From sequence record OL615013: 64,000 nt of DNA, one strand, 5' to 3'. The notes under the pieces were generated by a model. It was not told where the DNA came from and did no database searches. It saw only the letters and a list, made by a program, of their open reading frames with translations. Each line of letters begins with the position of its first letter. The stretch's first letter is position 1. This document shows positions 3,380 through 61,866 of the stretch, piece by piece. The DNA is from Shigella phage ChubbyThor. A program made the position numbers and the translations under genes.

Positions 3380-3685
3380 ATGTTAACCACTGATGTCTAC
3401 TTCAAATATGCCCAGCAAGCATATGGACCACACCGCCGGATAACGAAGTTCCTGATTGACTCTTTCCAATTCGAAGGAGAGACCAGGGAATACTCCCACA
3501 AACAATTCCCTCCCCGTGAAGTGCATGGCGACCAGTTCGTGAAGTTGTTCTGTCGCTGTGGTGGTTGTGACTTCACAGATGATGGGTATGCAATGCACGT
3601 ATACTGCTGCAATTGCTGTGGTAAATACATAACAGTCTATAGGAGAACCAATCATGGCGAAGAAACCCGAAACCAAGAAAGTTGA
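3380..3685 (+). CDS. Small Cys-rich hypothetical protein (possible zinc binding)
   Basis: ORF with GAGG 6 nt upstream; CRCGGCDF...CCNCCGKY cysteine clusters. 3' end overlaps next gene by 32 nt. Confidence 0.35.
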   Translation: MLTTDVYFKYAQQAYGPHRRITKFLIDSFQFEGETREYSHKQFPPREVHGDQFVKLFCRCGGCDFTDDGYAMHVYCCNCCGKYITVYRRTNHGEETRNQES

Positions 3686-4079
3686 AACCGCAACTACAGC
3701 CCCCGTTGATGACATCCAGGCGAAGGAGGAAGGTGTGTTACCCACCTACCTGCAACGCGCTGTGGACAACATACCTACAGGCGGGGATGGAGGCGTCGTC
3801 TACGCTGGCGGGTACGGTTGGGTGTGCGAATACCAAGACGGCACCAAAGAACTCCTTCAGGAGCTTCCAGGACTGGCGTCCACGCTGAAGCGTTATGGTC
3901 GCGACAAGTATGGCAAGCCGTTTGAGAAGGGCGCTGTCGTCTCCACCAACATTACTGCAGATACTCTGAACCTTCTGGGCGTGGACGACCTGAAGCTGCT
4001 GGCTGAACCTTTGGGTATCACAGTAGAAGATCGCATTACGTTGATTGCTCAACTGATCGAAAAATTGCAGATTAAATAA
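3654..4079 (+). CDS. Hypothetical protein
   Basis: ORF with strong SD (AGGAGAA, 6-nt spacer) before ATG 3654. Confidence 0.5.
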   Translation: MAKKPETKKVETATTAPVDDIQAKEEGVLPTYLQRAVDNIPTGGDGGVVYAGGYGWVCEYQDGTKELLQELPGLASTLKRYGRDKYGKPFEKGAVVSTNITADTLNLLGVDDLKLLAEPLGITVEDRITLIAQLIEKLQIK

Positions 4080-4108: not shown

Positions 4109-4501
4109 ATGGTTATCGTTGACGAAAGCAATCTGATAGAGTATGCCCTGAGGCATTACATTGTTGATTCTATCTCACGGGATGAGTTGCTGACAGACAT
4201 ACAGCGAATTTCGCTAATTAACCAATCATTGAAGAGATTTGTGCCTGGCAAGAGTCCAAGGCTCATATTGAATCAGCTGATCACTCTCTTCAATACGTTC
4301 GAAGCAGAAGCAGTCTGTCGTATGCTTGTGTTGAAAACGGATAAGTCTCAGCTTCCGCGCCTCAAGGCTGCTTTGTTGACGTTAGGCGTATGGCGTGATG
4401 ATTTATGTTCCGGTTCATACGAACCAGATAACGAGCTATTAATGGCTCTGAACAACGATTTGGGCGAGTGGAGGAAACCATGCCAACAATCACTGTATTA
4501 G
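4109..4501 (+). CDS. Hypothetical protein
   Basis: ORF in a co-directional block; no clear SD. Confidence 0.35.
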   Translation: MVIVDESNLIEYALRHYIVDSISRDELLTDIQRISLINQSLKRFVPGKSPRLILNQLITLFNTFEAEAVCRMLVLKTDKSQLPRLKAALLTLGVWRDDLCSGSYEPDNELLMALNNDLGEWRKPCQQSLY

Positions 4502-5289
4502 TAGCACCGGAAGTTGTTCGCAACAAACCGGAAACCGAGCGTCTGCACACCGTGACAGGCACTGCCAAGGGTTGGGAAAAGACCAGTCTTAACCAAGACC
4601 CTGACGAGATCCTGACCGAGTGTAAAGGCCTGGATGCACTTCTGACCAAGAGCAATCTTCAGGCTGATGGCGTGACCAAAGTTGATCCAACCAAGCCTAT
4701 CGGCTTCGAGATCTCTTACGAAATTCACGACCCAAGCGCCGTGCTGACCACTGGCCTGACCATCACCCCTGCTACTGCTGGTGGTGAAGTCGGTCAGGTT
4801 GTTGAACTGCTGGCGACCGTCGCTCCGGCGAACGCGACCTACCAGGGTGTCAACTGGTACTCTGGTGACATCACCAAAGCTGTACACATCGGCGGTGGTA
4901 AATTCAAGCTGCTGGCTCCTGGTTCTGTGACTGTGTACGGTGTTACCATCGAAGGTGGCCACACTGACTCCACGGTCATCACAGTGGCGGGTGCGCTGGC
5001 TCTGTCTACCGATCTGGCTGCTTCTCAGGATGTAACAGCAGGTGAAGACGCAACCTTCACCATCGCTGCTACAGGCGGCACCACCCCATACACATATGCT
5101 TGGTACTTCTCTGATGTCCCTGGCGGTGAAGGTGTGGTGATCGATGCTGGCGCTAACGCCACTGCTGCTACAGCAAGCCTGGTTATCACTGCAGTTGATG
5201 CCGCCGACGAGGGTGAGTACTGGTGTGTTGTTGAAGACGCCGACGGCCACTCTGTGACCTCCACCCGTTGTGAAATGGCTGTGGTCTAA
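4480..5289 (+). CDS. Ig-like domain structural protein (Hoc-like / Big_2-type decoration protein)
   Basis: GGAGG 5 nt upstream of ATG 4480; two Ig-like modules (VTWYSGD...; TFTIAATGGTTPYTYAWYF...EGEYWCVVED) typical of phage capsid/tail decoration proteins. Confidence 0.6.
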   Translation: MPTITVLVAPEVVRNKPETERLHTVTGTAKGWEKTSLNQDPDEILTECKGLDALLTKSNLQADGVTKVDPTKPIGFEISYEIHDPSAVLTTGLTITPATAGGEVGQVVELLATVAPANATYQGVNWYSGDITKAVHIGGGKFKLLAPGSVTVYGVTIEGGHTDSTVITVAGALALSTDLAASQDVTAGEDATFTIAATGGTTPYTYAWYFSDVPGGEGVVIDAGANATAATASLVITAVDAADEGEYWCVVEDADGHSVTSTRCEMAVV

Positions 5290-5291
5290 TC

Positions 5292-5522
5292 ATGAAGGGC
5301 TTCCAGGACTTTCTTGAAGACTCGGCAGCCCCTGGCACCACTACCACCGATGTGGGGAAACCCGAAGGTGGTATGGTGAAAGAGCCTGTCAAGAAGCCCA
5401 AGGATCTCGAGGAAGAACAAGAGCAGACCGACTTCCAAAAGATCTTTGGAAACATCTTCAAAGACCTCGACCTGAAGAATGCACGAAAGTGGAACTTCAG
5501 GACAGGCAAATATGAAGACTAA
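5292..5522 (+). CDS. Small charged protein with T4 internal-protein-like N-terminal leader (MKGFQDFLED)
   Basis: Starts 2 nt after the Ig-like gene stop; N-terminus resembles the T4 capsid targeting sequence MKTYQEFIAE; followed by a terminator. Confidence 0.45.
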   Translation: MKGFQDFLEDSAAPGTTTTDVGKPEGGMVKEPVKKPKDLEEEQEQTDFQKIFGNIFKDLDLKNARKWNFRTGKYED

Positions 5523-5546
5523 AAGAGGCTCCGGCCTCTTTTTCAT
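5523..5546 (+). terminator. Rho-independent terminator
   Basis: AGAGGC-TCCG-GCCTCT hairpin followed by TTTTTCATTT. Confidence 0.65.
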
Positions 5547-5610
5547 TTCCAGCATTCGGTGTATAATGGACCCGTTCCCCATGAGCGGAACCTAACTGAG
5601 GATACACCAA

Positions 5611-6123
5611 ATGCAATCCATGATCAAACGTAAAGTAGAAATCTCCCTGAATGCCCATGTTGAAATGATCCAGCAGCTTGTGTCTGACGCATATGAGATA
5701 CAAAAGGATCGCCAATCGAAGGGAGGCGTGATGGACCCCACCTGTCCCGGAAACATACTACACTATCGCATGCTGCGCTGGACTGGGCATACGGCTGCTC
5801 TGAAGAAACTGCTTTCTAAAAGATTCCAGGCCGAAAACGACGCCTATGTGTTTGGCGTCTTCCATAATTCGCGTGAACGCGATGCGCTCTTCTATCCTTC
5901 CCGCAACCCAAAGACAGGCGAAGAACTGCCTATCCCTGATGTCGACAAGGAAGAGAGCACGGCCACCATCGCCCATTTCATGGGCACGAATATCGATAAA
6001 GCAAACATCATCGTGTTCTCTGATACACTTCATGATCCGAAACGCTTGGCTGCCGCCCATGAAATGTTGCGCAATAGCCGCAGTGCTTTCACAAATTTGA
6101 CTTTAGTAGTGTTTCTGGGCTAG
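5611..6123 (+). CDS. Hypothetical protein
   Basis: ORF with GAGGA SD; perfect TATAAT hexamer at 5562-5567 upstream. Confidence 0.5.
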   Translation: MQSMIKRKVEISLNAHVEMIQQLVSDAYEIQKDRQSKGGVMDPTCPGNILHYRMLRWTGHTAALKKLLSKRFQAENDAYVFGVFHNSRERDALFYPSRNPKTGEELPIPDVDKEESTATIAHFMGTNIDKANIIVFSDTLHDPKRLAAAHEMLRNSRSAFTNLTLVVFLG

Positions 6124-6132
6124 ATAGTTACA

Positions 6133-6156
6133 GGGGAGGAAACTCCCCTATTTCCC
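6133..6156 (+). terminator. Putative terminator hairpin
   Basis: GGGGAG-GAAA-CTCCCC followed by TATTTCCC; lies between stop at 6123 and the RBS of the next gene. Confidence 0.45.
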
Positions 6157-6172
6157 TAACAGGAGGCGCACA

Positions 6173-6403
6173 ATGTACAAGTTCAGAATTAACAGAGAAC
6201 GTAATTCGTTCAAGTTCAGAATTAACAGAGAACGTAATTCGTTCAAGTTCGGTGTAGTCGCTGGAGTTTGTTTGTTCCTGGCGCTCGAAAGCGTTGTCAG
6301 CCTGCTTACAACATCACAAATGCAGGTGACTCGTTACCTACTTGCCATTATATTTTCTGCTGTCGGTTTACTCTGCTCCTATTTGGGGTGTGTGAAGAAA
6401 TAA
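6173..6403 (+). CDS. Small membrane protein containing an in-frame 11-codon tandem duplication
   Basis: AGGAGG 8 nt upstream of ATG; C-terminal two hydrophobic segments; N-terminal KFRINRERNSF repeated exactly. Confidence 0.45.
   Translation: MYKFRINRERNSFKFRINRERNSFKFGVVAGVCLFLALESVVSLLTTSQMQVTRYLLAIIFSAVGLLCSYLGCVKK
6178..6250 (+). repeat. Perfect 33-bp direct tandem repeat (2 copies plus 7-bp partial third)
   Basis: caagttcagaattaacagagaacgtaattcgtt at 6178-6210 and 6211-6243, then caagttc; in-frame inside the ORF. Confidence 0.9.
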
Positions 6404-58568: not shown

Positions 58569-58922
58569 TTACGACAGCTGCTTCAGTTTGTAGATCGTCT
58601 GATAGCACAGCGTCTTGATTTCATCAAGCGTGTTCTGAAGGTGGGAGTCACACTGCCTGTAGATGCCATCGACGTCTATCACCACGCTGTTGACATAGGA
58701 GATAGGGTCTGGGTTATAGAGCTTGATGTTCTCAAACGACGGAACGTACTGGCCACCCGCACCGATGTATGCTTCGGTAAACGTGTCCAGCAAGTCCTCC
58801 AGTTCCCCGTAGAACTCCCCGAGTGCCTTGTGCTTGGCGTAGGACGTTGTAACGAAGTGCAGGGCATGAGAGTGGGCTATAGCAAGCAGTCCACGGTTGA
58901 TGAAAATACTCGCGTTAACCAT
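58569..58922 (-). CDS. Hypothetical protein
   Basis: AGGA SD; no recognised motif. Confidence 0.4.
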   Translation of the reverse strand: MVNASIFINRGLLAIAHSHALHFVTTSYAKHKALGEFYGELEDLLDTFTEAYIGAGGQYVPSFENIKLYNPDPISYVNSVVIDVDGIYRQCDSHLQNTLDEIKTLCYQTIYKLKQLS

Positions 58923-58971: not shown

Positions 58972-59211
58972 TCACGGCTTGACCAGAGTCATCTTGACGG
59001 TTTCACCCGTGTCGGTGTCTGTCAGGGTCATGACGTCTTGTGCGTTCACAGACTTCACTTTCCCTTGTCTCTTGTCGCCGTTGCGATTGTAGTAGTCGAT
59101 CAGTTCGCCTTTGGTTGGGCGGCCAACATCGGTGATGTCATACTGTCCACGCTTGCCCAGCGCCCGGTGGTCGACCTTTGCCTCTGTCAGGAAGTCTTTA
59201 AACCCTTTCAT
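58972..59211 (-). CDS. Small basic protein with internal-protein-like leader (MKGFKDFLTE); candidate packaged protein
   Basis: N-terminus nearly identical to ORF 5292 (MKGFQDFLED) and similar to T4 IP leader MKTYQEFIAE; GGAGG SD. Confidence 0.45.
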   Translation of the reverse strand: MKGFKDFLTEAKVDHRALGKRGQYDITDVGRPTKGELIDYYNRNGDKRQGKVKSVNAQDVMTLTDTDTGETVKMTLVKP

Positions 59212-59220
59212 ACAACCTCC

Positions 59221-59790
59221 TTAGACAGGCTTGACGCCGAGGAACTTGGCGATATCAGCAGCCAGGTTTTTACCCTTGCTGATGTCGTGTTCTTTACCGC
59301 CGACAGTAACGATCACATATGGGTCGTCTTCACCGCCGAAGTTCACAGACACAGCCTTACCATGGCCGGGGATGCCAGAGTATTCGAACTCAGTGCGACC
59401 ACTCTTGCGAGACTTGCCAACACCCAGTGCTTTACCGATCATCTTGTCCATGTTCGCCAGTTCCTGAGCATAGGCTTCGGTCACCTGGCCTTTGTCAGCA
59501 GACTTGCCAAAGAAGAATTCGAAGCCGTCATGGACAGCAACGACTTCCTGACCTTGGGAGATACCGTGAGTCTGGTCTGGGGTCAGCTTCACCTTGATGG
59601 TATTGCCGTTGGTTAACTCCAGGTTGTAGACATCCGCCTGATTGTCAGGAGTGATCTGGGTCACGGTAGCACCGGAGCACCACTGAGTGCCGTCAGCTTG
59701 CTTGGTGATGGATACGCTTTTGCCCTGGACACCAGCATGGGTCTGAGGCTGAGCAGCTTGTTCTTTAAAGTATTGAAGGAACGGTTTCAT
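59221..59790 (-). CDS. Protein with internal-protein-like leader (MKPFLQYFKE); candidate packaged protein
   Basis: GAGGAG SD; TATAAATA 25 nt upstream of ATG. Confidence 0.45.
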   Translation of the reverse strand: MKPFLQYFKEQAAQPQTHAGVQGKSVSITKQADGTQWCSGATVTQITPDNQADVYNLELTNGNTIKVKLTPDQTHGISQGQEVVAVHDGFEFFFGKSADKGQVTEAYAQELANMDKMIGKALGVGKSRKSGRTEFEYSGIPGHGKAVSVNFGGEDDPYVIVTVGGKEHDISKGKNLAADIAKFLGVKPV

Positions 59791-59815: not shown

Positions 59816-59823
59816 TATTTATA
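59816..59823 (-). promoter_or_regulatory. T4-type late promoter core TATAAATA
   Basis: Exact TATAAATA on the minus strand, 25 nt upstream of the ATG at 59790. Confidence 0.5.
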
Positions 59824-59865: not shown

Positions 59866-61866
59866 TCACCAAACATTCAGAAATAGTGCATGACCCATAC
59901 CACCGTTTGACTGAAGAGACCATTTTCCTGTTTCTCTTCCCAGGCGTTCTATGTTGTTGAGTTGGTTTATCGACAATTCAGAAGAGTCAAATAATACCAC
60001 ATCACGTTTTTTGGGTTCTCTCAAATAAGGTCCGAGATCAATATCAATCATCCGGTTTATAAATTCTACTACTTCGGCTTGTTTCTTTGGTAATGTGATA
60101 TCCGGATTGTTTGTCACTTTCTCCAAGCGTTTATTTTCTGCGCTTATCATGGATAGCATAATTTGTGTAACTTTGCCGTCAGACAAGTTGTAATCGTTCC
60201 AAATCACTTCACCTTTATCCGTGATGGTTATATCATTCAAGAAAACCTGGTTTGGGTTGTATGTCTGACTTTTCAACTGTTGGAGGTTTCTGGAAAGATA
60301 TTCCATTTTTGATGAGATTTCATTAATCACACTCTGGACCAAATCTTTGTTCAAAGGAAGTTCATATGTCTTCGGATTGTTCAGGGTACGCCCTTTCTGA
60401 GAGACAATTGGGGTGAATGCAACTTTGCCTTTGTCATGATAATAGGTTACGTTGGTTATCATAGAAGTACCGGCATATTTTCCCGTTTCGGGGAAATTGA
60501 TTCCAGACCAAGTGATGGACATGCCGTTCTCTGTTTCCCCGAACACTGATGCGTTTTTCGGGATTCGCAGGTCTTTGGAACTGATAGTTGGGCCAGAAGA
60601 ATACTTCTTATACAGGTCGTGGAACTGGGCGACAATCGCCTGCGCCGCACTTTTGAAGTCGCGGTATTTCAGATCTGCTGCTTTATCTACCAGTTTACCA
60701 TCTTTATAAACCAGGTAATCTGATTTGATGGTGGTGTCAGAAGGTTCCCAAGCAGCGCCAGTAGCACTGATCAAAATCTCACTGAACTTGGAAGACAGGA
60801 CGAAAACATGATCGTCTTTGCGGCGTATATTAGAATCAAGTTTGTTGATCTCAGCCCAAACTTTGTCCGCCTTCGCTTTCGCCACATAGTTGTTACGGGC
60901 TGTGGTAGAAAGACCTGGAGGAGGGATAATGTCATCACCCTGGATACTGGTTGCCCCCACCCCAAATTCGACGTATGCGATGATCTTACCACCAGACTTC
61001 AGTTCCCAACCCATACCCTGACGGTCAGACGCTGCCATCAGTTTGCGGTCCACTTCACCACGACCAACATACTCTTTGTTGAACACAGTTACCTGGGCGA
61101 TGGTTTGGGTGCGGGCAATCTTCGCCATTGCGCCGTCTTTGACCATGATGGCCAGATCATTGGAACTCAGAGTCACGTCGTTGGCACCGACTACCTTCAC
61201 AACAGAACTGAAGATACCGTTGGATTTTGCCATGACGGAGATGTTCCAGTCGGGGTTGTTTGACGAAGTCCCCACATCAGGGGTGTTGTTCTGAACCGGA
61301 ACGTCACCGACCTTGTCCGGGTCATCCCAGGTGATACCCTGCATCTTCGGACCGTCGAATACCTGAGCCGGATCTTTACCCTTACGAACGAGCCACACAT
61401 AACCACGGTCAGGGACAGGCGCGTAGGTCAGGTCCATCACGTTCAGCTTCTGCTTCAGGCCGGACTGGCGGATGATCTTAGGAATCAGGGTCATCCCGCG
61501 TTCCAGCGCTTTCTTAGAGAAGTTGACAGCATAACCATCGATGGTCTTGCCCAGAGGGGTCGCCAGGAACTGCTTGGTCGCTTCGATCATGGAGGCGATG
61601 ACGCGCATTGGGTTCTTGAAGCGAGCGATGGCATCAGGATAAACAGAGCCGCGCTTCTGGCCGATGAAGACCTGACGAACGTTCTTGCCCAGCCCCTGAG
61701 GGGTATAGAACTGAATGCGGTATTCCTTTTCATCTTCGTCGATGAAGGTGAAGAACACATCGCCTGCGTTCTTCTTGCCCATGGTCAGCTCATACGGAGC
61801 AGAGTTGAACGCTTCGTCCAACTGATCCTTTTCCTGCATGAACTGAAGGAAATTTGGCTTTGACAT
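59866..61866 (-). CDS. Large (666 aa) candidate packaged protein (Alt-like by size and leader; function unknown)
   Basis: Start set at ATG 61866 (MSKPNFLQFMQE) with AGGAG SD; leader resembles the three other MK..F..F..E N-termini. Confidence 0.4.
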   Translation of the reverse strand: MSKPNFLQFMQEKDQLDEAFNSAPYELTMGKKNAGDVFFTFIDEDEKEYRIQFYTPQGLGKNVRQVFIGQKRGSVYPDAIARFKNPMRVIASMIEATKQFLATPLGKTIDGYAVNFSKKALERGMTLIPKIIRQSGLKQKLNVMDLTYAPVPDRGYVWLVRKGKDPAQVFDGPKMQGITWDDPDKVGDVPVQNNTPDVGTSSNNPDWNISVMAKSNGIFSSVVKVVGANDVTLSSNDLAIMVKDGAMAKIARTQTIAQVTVFNKEYVGRGEVDRKLMAASDRQGMGWELKSGGKIIAYVEFGVGATSIQGDDIIPPPGLSTTARNNYVAKAKADKVWAEINKLDSNIRRKDDHVFVLSSKFSEILISATGAAWEPSDTTIKSDYLVYKDGKLVDKAADLKYRDFKSAAQAIVAQFHDLYKKYSSGPTISSKDLRIPKNASVFGETENGMSITWSGINFPETGKYAGTSMITNVTYYHDKGKVAFTPIVSQKGRTLNNPKTYELPLNKDLVQSVINEISSKMEYLSRNLQQLKSQTYNPNQVFLNDITITDKGEVIWNDYNLSDGKVTQIMLSMISAENKRLEKVTNNPDITLPKKQAEVVEFINRMIDIDLGPYLREPKKRDVVLFDSSELSINQLNNIERLGRETGKWSLQSNGGMGHALFLNVW

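What the first reader, a model, noticed from the sequence alone, without database searches (positions are those of the whole stretch)
5292..5522. Fourth copy of the MKGFxDFLxE leader, 54 kb away, directly after the Ig-like decoration gene
This 76-aa highly charged ORF starts MKGFQDFLED, almost identical to the leader of ORF 58972-59211, yet the remainder of the two proteins is unrelated. A conserved 10-residue N-terminus on otherwise different small proteins argues for a shared targeting or processing signal rather than common ancestry of the whole protein. It is translationally coupled to a structural (Ig-like) gene, consistent with late expression.
Basis: seen in the sequence. Interest (0 to 1): 0.55.

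Follow-up and report, generated by a model that had tools for sequence, protein, structure and literature searches.

The report
T4-type capsid-targeting leader on small phage protein
The ten-residue start shared by this 76-residue protein and three others in the window closely matches the "capsid targeting sequence" that phage T4 uses to load internal proteins into its head, so this Shigella/Salmonella-type phage probably uses the same loading system, although this particular protein has not yet been seen in virions.

Summary
ORF 5292-5522 (76 aa, = Shigella phage Ag3 gp007) starts MKGFQDFLED, and ORF 58972-59211 starts MKGFKDFLTE. Two more divergent copies head the genes at 59221-59790 and 59866-61866.

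The window is an Ackermannviridae (Agtrevirus) genome. The leader matches the T4 capsid targeting sequence (CTS) MKTYQEFIAE of internal proteins IPII and IPIII, with aromatic residues at positions 4 and 7, the T4 targeting determinants. The near-identical Ag3 genome encodes homologues of the T4 gp21 protease and of the gp22 and gp68 core proteins.

The same leader heads unrelated proteins in uncultured T4-like viral contigs: 96 of 121 pattern matches are ORF starts, against 13 of 120 for a permuted control.

Homologues of the other three leader proteins are found by mass spectrometry in LIMEstone1 and/or Sajous1 virions. The gp007 homologue is not.

gp007 also deviates at the processing position. 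It has Leu8-Glu9-Asp10, and Asp10 blocks cleavage but not targeting in T4. Its body is predicted to be disordered, and it stays translationally coupled to the Ig-like head-decoration gene even in distant relatives.

Verdict: a new member of a known kind. It is very likely a prohead-targeting leader, but the fate and function of this cargo are unresolved. I found no publication describing a CTS in Ackermannviridae.

The parts
3622..3629 (+). Late-promoter-like element (gGTAAATAC) upstream of the four-gene operon gp004-gp007
   Evidence: TAAATAC match at 3622. The same position (record 4645-4650) is annotated as a 'putative late promoter' by the LIMEstone1 authors. Not experimentally verified.
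3654..4079 (+). gp004 homologue (141 aa, DUF7440 family), first gene of the operon
   Evidence: ORF list. Ag3 gp004. DUF7440 sits at the syntenic position in distant relatives.
4109..4501 (+). gp005 homologue (130 aa, DUF7207 family)
   Evidence: ORF list. DUF7207 is conserved at the syntenic position.
4480..5289 (+). Ig-like (Hoc-like) virion protein, Ag3 gp006
   Evidence: Pfam Ig_3, I-set and Big_2; PHROG 215 and Hoc-like families. The LIMEstone1 ORF006 homologue was confirmed in virions by MS.
5292..5522 (+). The finding: 76-aa protein (Ag3 gp007, phrog_4805) with a CTS-like leader and a body predicted to be disordered
5292..5321 (+). Leader codons, residues 1-10 MKGFQDFLED (Phe4 and Phe7 at the T4 targeting positions; Leu8-Glu9-Asp10 at the processing positions)
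   Evidence: Alignment A2: M1, F4 and E9 are invariant; K2 and D10 are at least 90% conserved. Comparison with T4 leaders. PSSM score 28.7.
5337..5372 (+). Invariant core TTTxDVGKPEGG (residues 16-27); function unknown
   Evidence: Invariant columns in A2. Retained as NVGKPDGG in remote relatives. A similar TDVGRPxKG occurs in the 79-aa protein.
5521..5548 (+). Intrinsic terminator closing the operon
   Evidence: Nine-pair hairpin followed by a U-run; -15.2 kcal/mol, z -3.3.
5540..5567 (+). Sigma-70-like promoter of the next, separate gene (histone-like, 5611-6123)
   Evidence: TTTTCA-16-TATAAT, 10 of 12 matches.
58972..59211 (-). 79-aa protein with leader MKGFKDFLTE|A and an SH3/Tudor-like beta-barrel body
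   Evidence: The Sajous1 gp216 homologue gave 20 spectra in CsCl-purified virions.
59221..59790 (-). 189-aa protein with leader MKPFLQYFKE|Q
   Evidence: Homologues found in virions: LIMEstone1 ORF080 and Sajous1 gp215, 32 spectra.
59816..59823 (-). T4-type late promoter TATAAATA upstream of the 189-aa gene
   Evidence: Exact TATAAATA about 30 nt before the ATG. A late promoter is annotated at the equivalent LIMEstone1 site.
59866..61866 (-). 666-aa protein with leader MSKPNFLQFMQE|K, a conserved N-terminal domain of about 190 aa and a swapped, variable remainder
   Evidence: Homologues found in virions: LIMEstone1 ORF081 and ORF082 and Sajous1 gp214, 196 spectra.

Best explanation
The first ten residues of the 76-aa protein are a T4-type capsid (prohead-core) targeting sequence. 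The proposed sequence of events is as follows. The gene is the last in a probably late operon and is translated by re-initiation after the Ig-like head-decoration gene. The leader, a short helix with Phe4 and Phe7, docks the protein onto the gp22/gp68-type scaffolding core while the prohead assembles, so the protein ends up inside the shell. The three other leader proteins in the window end in hydrophobic-x-Glu and are probably trimmed by the gp21-type protease. This protein instead has a conserved Leu8-Glu9-Asp10, so it is probably not cut at that site. Its mostly disordered body, with the invariant TTTxDVGKPEGG core, either stays inside the head at low copy number and is ejected with the DNA, or acts only in the prohead and is lost at maturation. 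Shown here: the leader, its conservation, its match to the T4 CTS, its spread on unrelated cargo in T4-like viruses, the presence of the protease and core genes in the near-identical Ag3 genome, and virion residence of the other leader proteins in related phages. Inferred: targeting, the lack of processing, and the fate of this protein.
For: The window is 98.5% identical to Shigella phage Ag3, an Agtrevirus of the Ackermannviridae.

T4 leaders read from NC_000866 are ipII and ipIII MKTYQEFIAE|A and ipI MKTFKEFTSTTTPVSTITE|A. The CTS sequence is confirmed in PMC8442874. In T4, residues 4 and 7 carry targeting and residues 8 and 10 carry processing; Asp10 blocks processing but still allows targeting (PMC9026906).

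In the gp007 family F4 and E9 are invariant, position 7 is Phe or Tyr, and D10 is at least 90% conserved. Remote relatives keep the leader.

A PSSM built only from metagenomic leaders ranks T4 ipIII, ipII and ipI as the top three ORFs in 31 kb of T4. In the window it ranks 58972, 5292 and 59221 as the top three.

The leader pattern in IMG/VR gave 96 ORF starts among 121 matches, against 13 of 120 for a permuted control (p 1e-28). T4-core-like genes lie nearby in 61 of 120 loci against 16 of 120 (p 5e-10).

Ag3 encodes portal, gp68-like, gp21-like, gp22-like and gp23-like genes. Its protease matches T4 gp21 (PDB 5JBL) at E 1e-16. The T4 gp23 cleavage site is SFLTE|A, and the 79-aa protein's leader ends DFLTE|A.

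Leader residues 1-10 of the 79-aa protein are disordered and lie outside its fold. Homologues of the other three leader proteins are virion proteins by MS.
Against: The gp007 homologue was not detected in LIMEstone1 virions, where the neighbouring Ig-like ORF006 was. It is also not listed for Sajous1 virions, although the Ig-like gp83 is not listed there either, so that dataset is weak evidence.

The canonical L/I-x-Glu cleavage motif is absent from its leader. No experiment on any Ackermannviridae leader was found. Similarity over ten residues cannot prove function. The protease and core genes lie outside the window and are known only from the near-identical Ag3 genome.
Confidence: 0.6

Rival explanations
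1. gp007 is a transient prohead-core or assembly accessory. It is targeted by the same leader but then degraded or expelled at maturation, like T4 scaffold components, so it is not an ejected internal protein. This is a variant of the main explanation that differs only in the protein's fate.
For: The protein was not found in two virion proteomes. It is predicted to be largely disordered (pLDDT 63, pTM 0.20). It is tightly co-expressed with a head protein. An L39-E40-E41 site could be cut by a gp21-type enzyme (read from the sequence).
Against: The gene lies far from the head-morphogenesis module, which is at about 102-108 kb in Ag3. It has no similarity to T4 gp67 or gp68 or to their Ag3 homologues. 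The LEE site is not conserved in remote relatives.
Confidence: 0.3
2. The shared N-terminus reflects common descent. gp007 and the 79-aa protein would be diverged paralogues that share an ancestral 5' segment, and the leader itself would have no targeting role.
For: Similarity extends beyond the leader: 35 aligned positions at E 0.002 in a small database, with a shared TDVG[KR]PxxG motif.
Against: The same leader heads many unrelated proteins in T4-like contigs, far above a permuted control. It also heads the T4 IPs, where its function is proven. With the leaders removed the residual match is E 0.23. One body is a folded beta-barrel and the other is predicted to be disordered. Descent and signal function are not mutually exclusive.
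Confidence: 0.07
3. The conserved start is an expression feature, for example a 5' coding-region element that enhances translation or a host-protease degron, and has nothing to do with the capsid.
For: Met-Lys starts are common in highly expressed phage genes. gp007 lacks a Shine-Dalgarno sequence.
Against: The leader codons differ at synonymous sites between copies while the residues are kept, so selection acts on the peptide and not the RNA. The conserved positions are exactly the T4 targeting residues. The leader is enriched in genomes with T4-type head genes.
Confidence: 0.03

Closest known systems
[quoted passage not shown]
   Same: It is N-terminal and about 10 residues long, with a Met-Lys start, aromatic residues at positions 4 and 7 and an aliphatic residue at 8. 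It sits on otherwise unrelated small proteins. The phage has a gp21-type protease and a gp22-type core. Several leader proteins are virion components. The cargo genes are variable between close relatives.
   Different: The host phage belongs to a different family (Ackermannviridae, not Straboviridae). The cargo has no similarity to any T4 IP. This protein carries Glu9-Asp10 instead of x-Glu10, is mildly acidic (pI about 5) rather than basic, is predicted to be disordered, and has not been detected in virions.
T4 CTS E10D mutant (targeted but unprocessed; PMC9026906)
   Same: Asp at position 10 of an otherwise CTS-like leader.
   Different: Here the Asp is the conserved natural state of a whole protein family, not a laboratory mutant. 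The specificity of the Ackermannviridae protease is untested.
T4 prohead core proteins gp67 and gp68 and the scaffold gp22
   Same: They are small, charged, partly disordered proteins that enter the prohead and are processed by gp21. The Ag3 gp22 homologue starts MKPELQKLFE|G and the gp68 homologue contains F-A-D-F-L near its N-terminus.
   Different: There is no sequence similarity. The gene is not in the head module, and Ag3 already has gp67-like, gp68-like and gp22-like genes.
T4 Inh (minor head protein, inhibitor of the gp21 protease), encoded next to hoc
   Same: Positional analogy only: a gene adjacent to the Ig-like decoration gene.
   Different: There is no sequence similarity to any of the window's gp003-gp007. 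Inh is 226 aa and lies upstream of hoc, not downstream.

Membership tests
T4-type CTS-bearing head-internal proteins | N-terminal leader of about 10 residues with aromatic residues at positions 4 and 7 (the targeting determinants in T4) | tested here: met
   MKGFQDFLED. F4 is invariant and position 7 is Phe or Tyr in 15 homologues and in remote relatives. The PSSM score of 28.7 lies between T4 ipI (23.4) and ipII/ipIII (34.1).
T4-type CTS-bearing head-internal proteins | Processing determinants: aliphatic residue at position 8 and Glu at position 10 (gp21 site L/I-x-E followed by a small residue) | tested here: not met
   The leader has Leu8-Glu9-Asp10|Ser11, with Asp10 at least 90% conserved. 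In T4, Asp10 blocks processing but not targeting. The 79-aa protein does meet this feature (FLTE|A).
T4-type CTS-bearing head-internal proteins | The leader is modular: the same leader sits on unrelated cargo | tested here: met
   The four window proteins have no significant similarity once leaders are removed. Ninety-six diverse leader ORFs were found in IMG/VR against 13 for a control pattern. The leader is disordered and lies outside the fold of the 79-aa protein.
T4-type CTS-bearing head-internal proteins | The phage encodes a gp21-family prohead protease and a gp22-type scaffolding core | tested here: met
   Ag3 gp159-gp163 are annotated accordingly. The protease matches T4 gp21 (PDB 5JBL) at E 1e-16. 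These genes lie outside the window, in the 98.5%-identical genome.
T4-type CTS-bearing head-internal proteins | The protein is present inside proheads or virions | tested here: inconclusive
   It was not detected in LIMEstone1 (ORF007) or listed for Sajous1 (gp82) virion MS. Sajous1 also failed to list the Ig-like gp83. Homologues of the other three leader proteins were detected.
T4-type CTS-bearing head-internal proteins | The leader is removed in mature particles and the protein is ejected into the host with the DNA | not testable with these tools
   This needs N-terminal or top-down MS of virions and ejection assays. The stored copy of the Sajous1 peptide table is truncated and held no relevant peptides.
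T4 prohead core/scaffold proteins (gp22, gp67, gp68) | Sequence homology and a location in the gp20-gp23 head module | tested here: not met
   No similarity was found. The gene lies next to rIIB and the Ig-like gene, about 97 kb from the head module.
Capsid decoration proteins (Hoc/Soc-like) | A folded Ig-like or Soc-like domain that binds the outer capsid surface | tested here: not met
   No Pfam domain was found. The AF2 model has pLDDT 63 and pTM 0.20 and is mostly coil. There were no PDB sequence matches.

The most novel reading that the evidence does not exclude
gp007 is a naturally uncleavable CTS protein, with a conserved Glu9-Asp10. It would enter the prohead as a pseudo-substrate of the gp21-type protease and regulate or time maturation, or stay anchored to core remnants. 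That would be a function distinct from ejected internal proteins and loosely analogous to T4 Inh, which also sits beside hoc. More broadly, the rule M-K-x-F-x-[DE]-F-[ILVM]-x-E at an ORF start would be a T4-superfamily-wide packaging code. It could predict encapsidated and possibly injected proteins directly from sequence, including enzyme-like cargo seen in uncultured viruses.
Probability: 0.12. Interest if true: 0.7.

Novelty: new member of a known kind. Interest (0 to 1): 0.48.

Why it matters
Ackermannviridae such as ViI, CBA120, Ag3 and LIMEstone are widely used biocontrol and therapy phages. In the papers I could search, their internal head proteins are not described. A 2024 review of the family never mentions internal proteins, and no paper pairs 'capsid targeting' with these phages.

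Recognising a T4-type leader does several things:
- It assigns a likely location, inside the head, to at least four 'hypothetical' proteins.
- It offers an alternative to the published 'ferrojan horse tail operon' reading of the Sajous1 gp214-217 cluster.
- It nominates candidates for ejected host-takeover or anti-defence proteins in phages with hypermodified DNA.
- It gives an engineering handle for packaging foreign proteins into these capsids, as is done in T4.

The metagenome scan suggests the same short code marks packaged cargo across the T4 superfamily.

Tried and rejected
1. Peptide-level evidence. I searched the Sajous1 supplementary MS table for gp007 peptides and for the leader-bearing N-termini. 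There were no hits, but the stored file is truncated, so this is uninformative.

2. T4 Inh. It is encoded next to hoc, but it has no similarity to the window's gp003-gp007. It remains a positional analogy only.

3. Ag3 gp184 cargo and the T4 ipI locus. In Klebsiella phage Matisse the homologous domain is the C-terminus of the 57B-like 'RNA ligase', not an internal protein. The link was dropped.

4. P0042. This 1432-aa hit of the gp007 profile is a cysteine-rich repeat protein matching only 'DVGKPE'. I treated it as chance.

5. Structure route for gp007. The AF2 model was too poor to justify a fold search, and a PDB sequence search gave nothing.

6. The gp007 HMM against the 96 metagenomic leader ORFs gave only leader-level matches of at most 11 bits.

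7. The C-terminus of the 666-aa protein hits phrog_7673, 'internal head protein', at 7e-9. I treat this as an annotation label and not independent evidence, because there is no similarity to the T4 IPs.

8. The ViI proteome paper (Pickard 2010) is not held. The phiD3, EspM4VN, PP35, CBA120 and Ag3 papers gave no information on this protein.

Full report
**What the window is.** The region 4400-6200 is 98.5% identical to Shigella phage Ag3 (phiSboM-AG3; Ackermannviridae, Agtrevirus), and window position plus 1023 gives the Ag3 coordinate. ORF 5292-5522 is Ag3 gp007, annotated 'hypothetical protein'. It matches phrog_4805 (unknown function) and no Pfam family.

**Checking the observation.**
- The ORF is there as described: 76 aa, MKGFQDFLEDSAAPGTTTTDVGKPEGG..., with 13 Lys/Arg and 16 Asp/Glu.
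- ORF 58972-59211 (-) starts MKGFKDFLTE. Two weaker copies are 59221-59790 (-) MKPFLQYFKE and 59866-61866 (-) MSKPNFLQFMQE. 'Fourth copy' is therefore a fair description.
- A strict regular expression for the leader hits three times in the window, each time at an ORF start, and never in 300 Markov-simulated windows.
- The two best copies use different codons at most synonymous positions (AAG/AAA, GGC/GGG, TTC/TTT, TTT/TTC, CTT/CTG). The peptide is conserved, not the DNA.
Both proteins carry T-D-V-G-K/R-P-x-x-G shortly after the leader, and it lies in a strongly conserved block of each family. With the leaders removed this match is not significant on its own (E 0.23).

**What the leader is.**
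- I read the T4 internal-protein genes from NC_000866. ipII and ipIII start MKTYQEFIAE|A, and ipI starts MKTFKEFTSTTTPVSTITE|A.
- MKTYQEFIAE is the T4 capsid targeting sequence (PMC8442874).
- According to the review PMC9026906, the first 10 residues of IPIII suffice for packaging into the head. Residues 4 and 7 mainly carry targeting and residues 8 and 10 carry processing. Asp at position 10 blocks processing but still allows targeting. The gp21 protease cuts after L/I-x-E.
- The window leaders fit this template: an aromatic residue at position 4 and another three residues later, then an aliphatic residue, any residue, and an acidic residue.
- The 79-aa protein ends its leader with DFLTE|A. 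The T4 major capsid protein is cut at SFLTE|A: the full-length protein has 521 aa, the mature chain in the PDB has 456 aa, and the sequence was read.

**Independent test of the match.**
- I scanned IMG/VR for the back-translated pattern M-K-x-F-x-[DE]-F-[hydrophobic]-x-E. Of 121 matches, 96 are clean ORF starts, meaning an ORF of at least 40 aa, an in-frame stop within 25 codons upstream and no upstream ATG.
- A control pattern with the same codons in permuted order gave 13 of 120 (Fisher p 1e-28).
- T4-core-like genes (gp17, 18, 20, 23, 43, 44, 46, 47, 61 and others) lie within the locus of at most 15 kb in 61 of 120 cases, against 16 of 120 for the control (p 5e-10).
- The unconstrained positions behave like T4. 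Position 3 is Thr or Ser in 71% of cases. Position 8 is Ile or Leu in 76%. Position 11, the residue after the predicted cut, is Ala or Ser in 55%.
- A PSSM built from these metagenomic leaders alone ranks ipIII, ipII and ipI as the top three ORFs in 31 kb of T4. In the window it ranks 58972 (33.5), 5292 (28.7) and 59221 (18.9) as the top three.
- The cargo behind the leader is very diverse.

**The rest of the system.**
- Ag3 encodes, at 102.5-107.8 kb, homologues of the major capsid protein gp23, the core protein gp22, the gp21 protease, gp68, a small gp67-like ORF and the portal. The protease matches T4 gp21 (PDB 5JBL) at E 1e-16. These genes lie outside the window.
- Scanning the remaining Ag3 sequence found a fifth clear leader gene, gp184 (MKTFGDFIAE|W), in the tRNA cluster. 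A possible sixth is gp187 (MKAFSDFVNNRLQE), which is sporadically distributed.

**Virion evidence from the literature.**
- In LIMEstone1 the authors reported an unexplained cluster of 'unknown structural proteins', ORF078-085 (PMC3296691). Mapping shows that ORF080 is the 189-aa leader protein. ORF081 plus ORF082 are the large leader protein, split by a frameshift in that record.
- In Kuttervirus Sajous1, MS of CsCl-purified virions gave the following (PMC10892097):

| Sajous1 protein | Leader | Spectra |
|---|---|---|
| gp214 (795 aa) | MAIPSFLNFLEE | 196 |
| gp215 | MKPFIEYFKE | 32 |
| gp216 (79 aa) | MKGFPDFLKE | 20 |
| gp217 (DUF5856, ferritin-like) | none | 10 |

- That paper read gp214-217 as a 'ferrojan horse' tail operon. 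The leaders suggest a location inside the head instead.
- AlphaFold places residues 1-10 of the 79-aa protein as a disordered tail on a confident SH3/Tudor-like barrel (pLDDT 87).
- An exact T4-type late promoter, TATAAATA, precedes the 189-aa gene.

**The 76-aa protein itself.**
- Homologues occur across Agtrevirus, Limestonevirus, Kuttervirus and Taipeivirus. In 15 full-length members M1, F4, E9 and the block T16-G27 (TTTxDVGKPEGG) are invariant, and D10 is at least 90% conserved.
- A profile search of 1.8 billion representative proteins found only a handful of further relatives, for example MKSFKDFLESEAPASVDSNVGKPDGG.... Their contigs keep the order rIIB, DUF7440, DUF7207, Big_2 Ig-like gene, small gene, with the stop and start codons overlapping as TAATG.
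- In the window the junction is TAA-tc-ATG with no Shine-Dalgarno sequence. Expression therefore probably depends on re-initiation after the Ig-like gene.
- The operon begins after the rIIB terminator. It carries a late-promoter-like TAAATAC at 3622, annotated as a putative late promoter in LIMEstone1. It ends at a good terminator at 5521-5548, and a sigma-70-like promoter for the next gene follows.
- The AF2 model is poor (pLDDT 63, pTM 0.20): a short helix over residues 4-9 and little else.

**What does not fit.**
- The LIMEstone1 homologue (ORF007) was not detected, although the adjacent Ig-like ORF006 was.
- In Sajous1 neither gp82 (the homologue) nor the Ig-like gp83 is listed, so that dataset says little.
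- The leader has Glu9-Asp10 where the other leaders and T4 have x-Glu. By the T4 rule this predicts targeting without cleavage. Whether the Ackermannviridae enzyme follows that rule is untested.
- I therefore commit to 'prohead-targeting leader' at about 0.6. I leave the protein's fate open between low-copy retention and transient residence.

**Comparison with known systems, and novelty.**
- The system works like the T4 CTS and internal-protein system and meets its sequence-level criteria, except for the cleavage residue in this one protein. Virion residence and processing of this protein remain unproven.
- I found no paper that links 'capsid targeting' to Ackermannviridae, ViI-like phages, CBA120 or LIMEstone. 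The 2024 family review does not mention internal proteins, proheads or Hoc.
- The searchable library is incomplete, so this is absence of evidence only.
- I file the finding as a new member of a known kind and of moderate interest. The kind is expected in a T4-related phage. The value lies in locating several unknown proteins, in a conserved non-canonical variant, and in a simple sequence rule that seems to hold across the T4 superfamily.

Noticed in passing
window 59866-61866 (-); Ag3 L002:11739-14118; LIMEstone1 L004:7416-9012: The large leader protein is one intact 666-aa ORF here. It is annotated as two or three ORFs in Ag3 (gp098, gp097, gp096) and LIMEstone1 (ORF082, ORF081), apparently through frameshifts. 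Only the N-terminal 190 aa or so are conserved; the rest is swapped between this window and Ag3 although the genomes are otherwise about 97-98% identical. This cargo variability recalls the T4 internal-protein loci.
   Followed up: partly
Ag3 record 137998-138195 (L003:37998-38195) and 140287-140796; outside the window: There are further leader genes in the same phage type. gp184 (MKTFGDFIAE|W, 65 aa) lies in the tRNA cluster, and its cargo domain also occurs as the C-terminus of a 57B-like protein in T4-like Klebsiella phage Matisse. gp187 (MKAFSDFVNNRLQE, 169 aa) is present in only 9 phage records spanning three host genera.
   Followed up: partly
IMG/VR loci L008-L127: The leader heads very diverse cargo in uncultured T4-like viruses. 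Judged by eye from N-terminal motifs, and not checked with any domain search, these include proteins that look like a P-loop kinase (L026, L031, L051...GGPGSGKST) and a nucleotidyltransferase (L052, L122...PPTAGHGH). There are also several recurrent families. Many of these genes sit next to the primase (gp61) and nrdA/nrdB, as the window's cluster does.
   Followed up: partly
window 58569-58922 (-): The DUF5856 protein (called 'ferritin' in PMC10892097 from a Phyre2 match, and labelled 'starvation-inducible transcriptional regulator' in PHROGs) is a confirmed virion protein in LIMEstone1 and Sajous1. It lacks the leader, although it is the next gene after the three leader genes and has its own CTAAATAC element upstream. 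How it enters the particle is unexplained.
   Followed up: no
Ag3 L003:3980-4846 and 5568-5873 (head module, outside the window): The gp22 homologue starts MKPELQKLFE|G and the gp68 homologue starts MEIEEVATFADFLAS, both reminiscent of the leader. The capsid protein has NLGE|SDAPG, which resembles gp007's FLED|SAAPG.
   Followed up: no
window 6173-6246: There is a tandem duplication of about 33 bp. The hairpin GAACGAATTACGTTC occurs twice on the minus strand, and the overlapping ORF reads FRINRERNSFK twice. It lies just upstream of a small membrane-protein gene.
   Followed up: no
window 5337-5372 and 59126-59152 (-): A second short motif, T-D-V-G-K/R-P-x-x-G, is shared by the 76-aa and 79-aa proteins and is strongly conserved in both families. 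Its function is unknown, and it is absent from the other leader proteins.
   Followed up: partly
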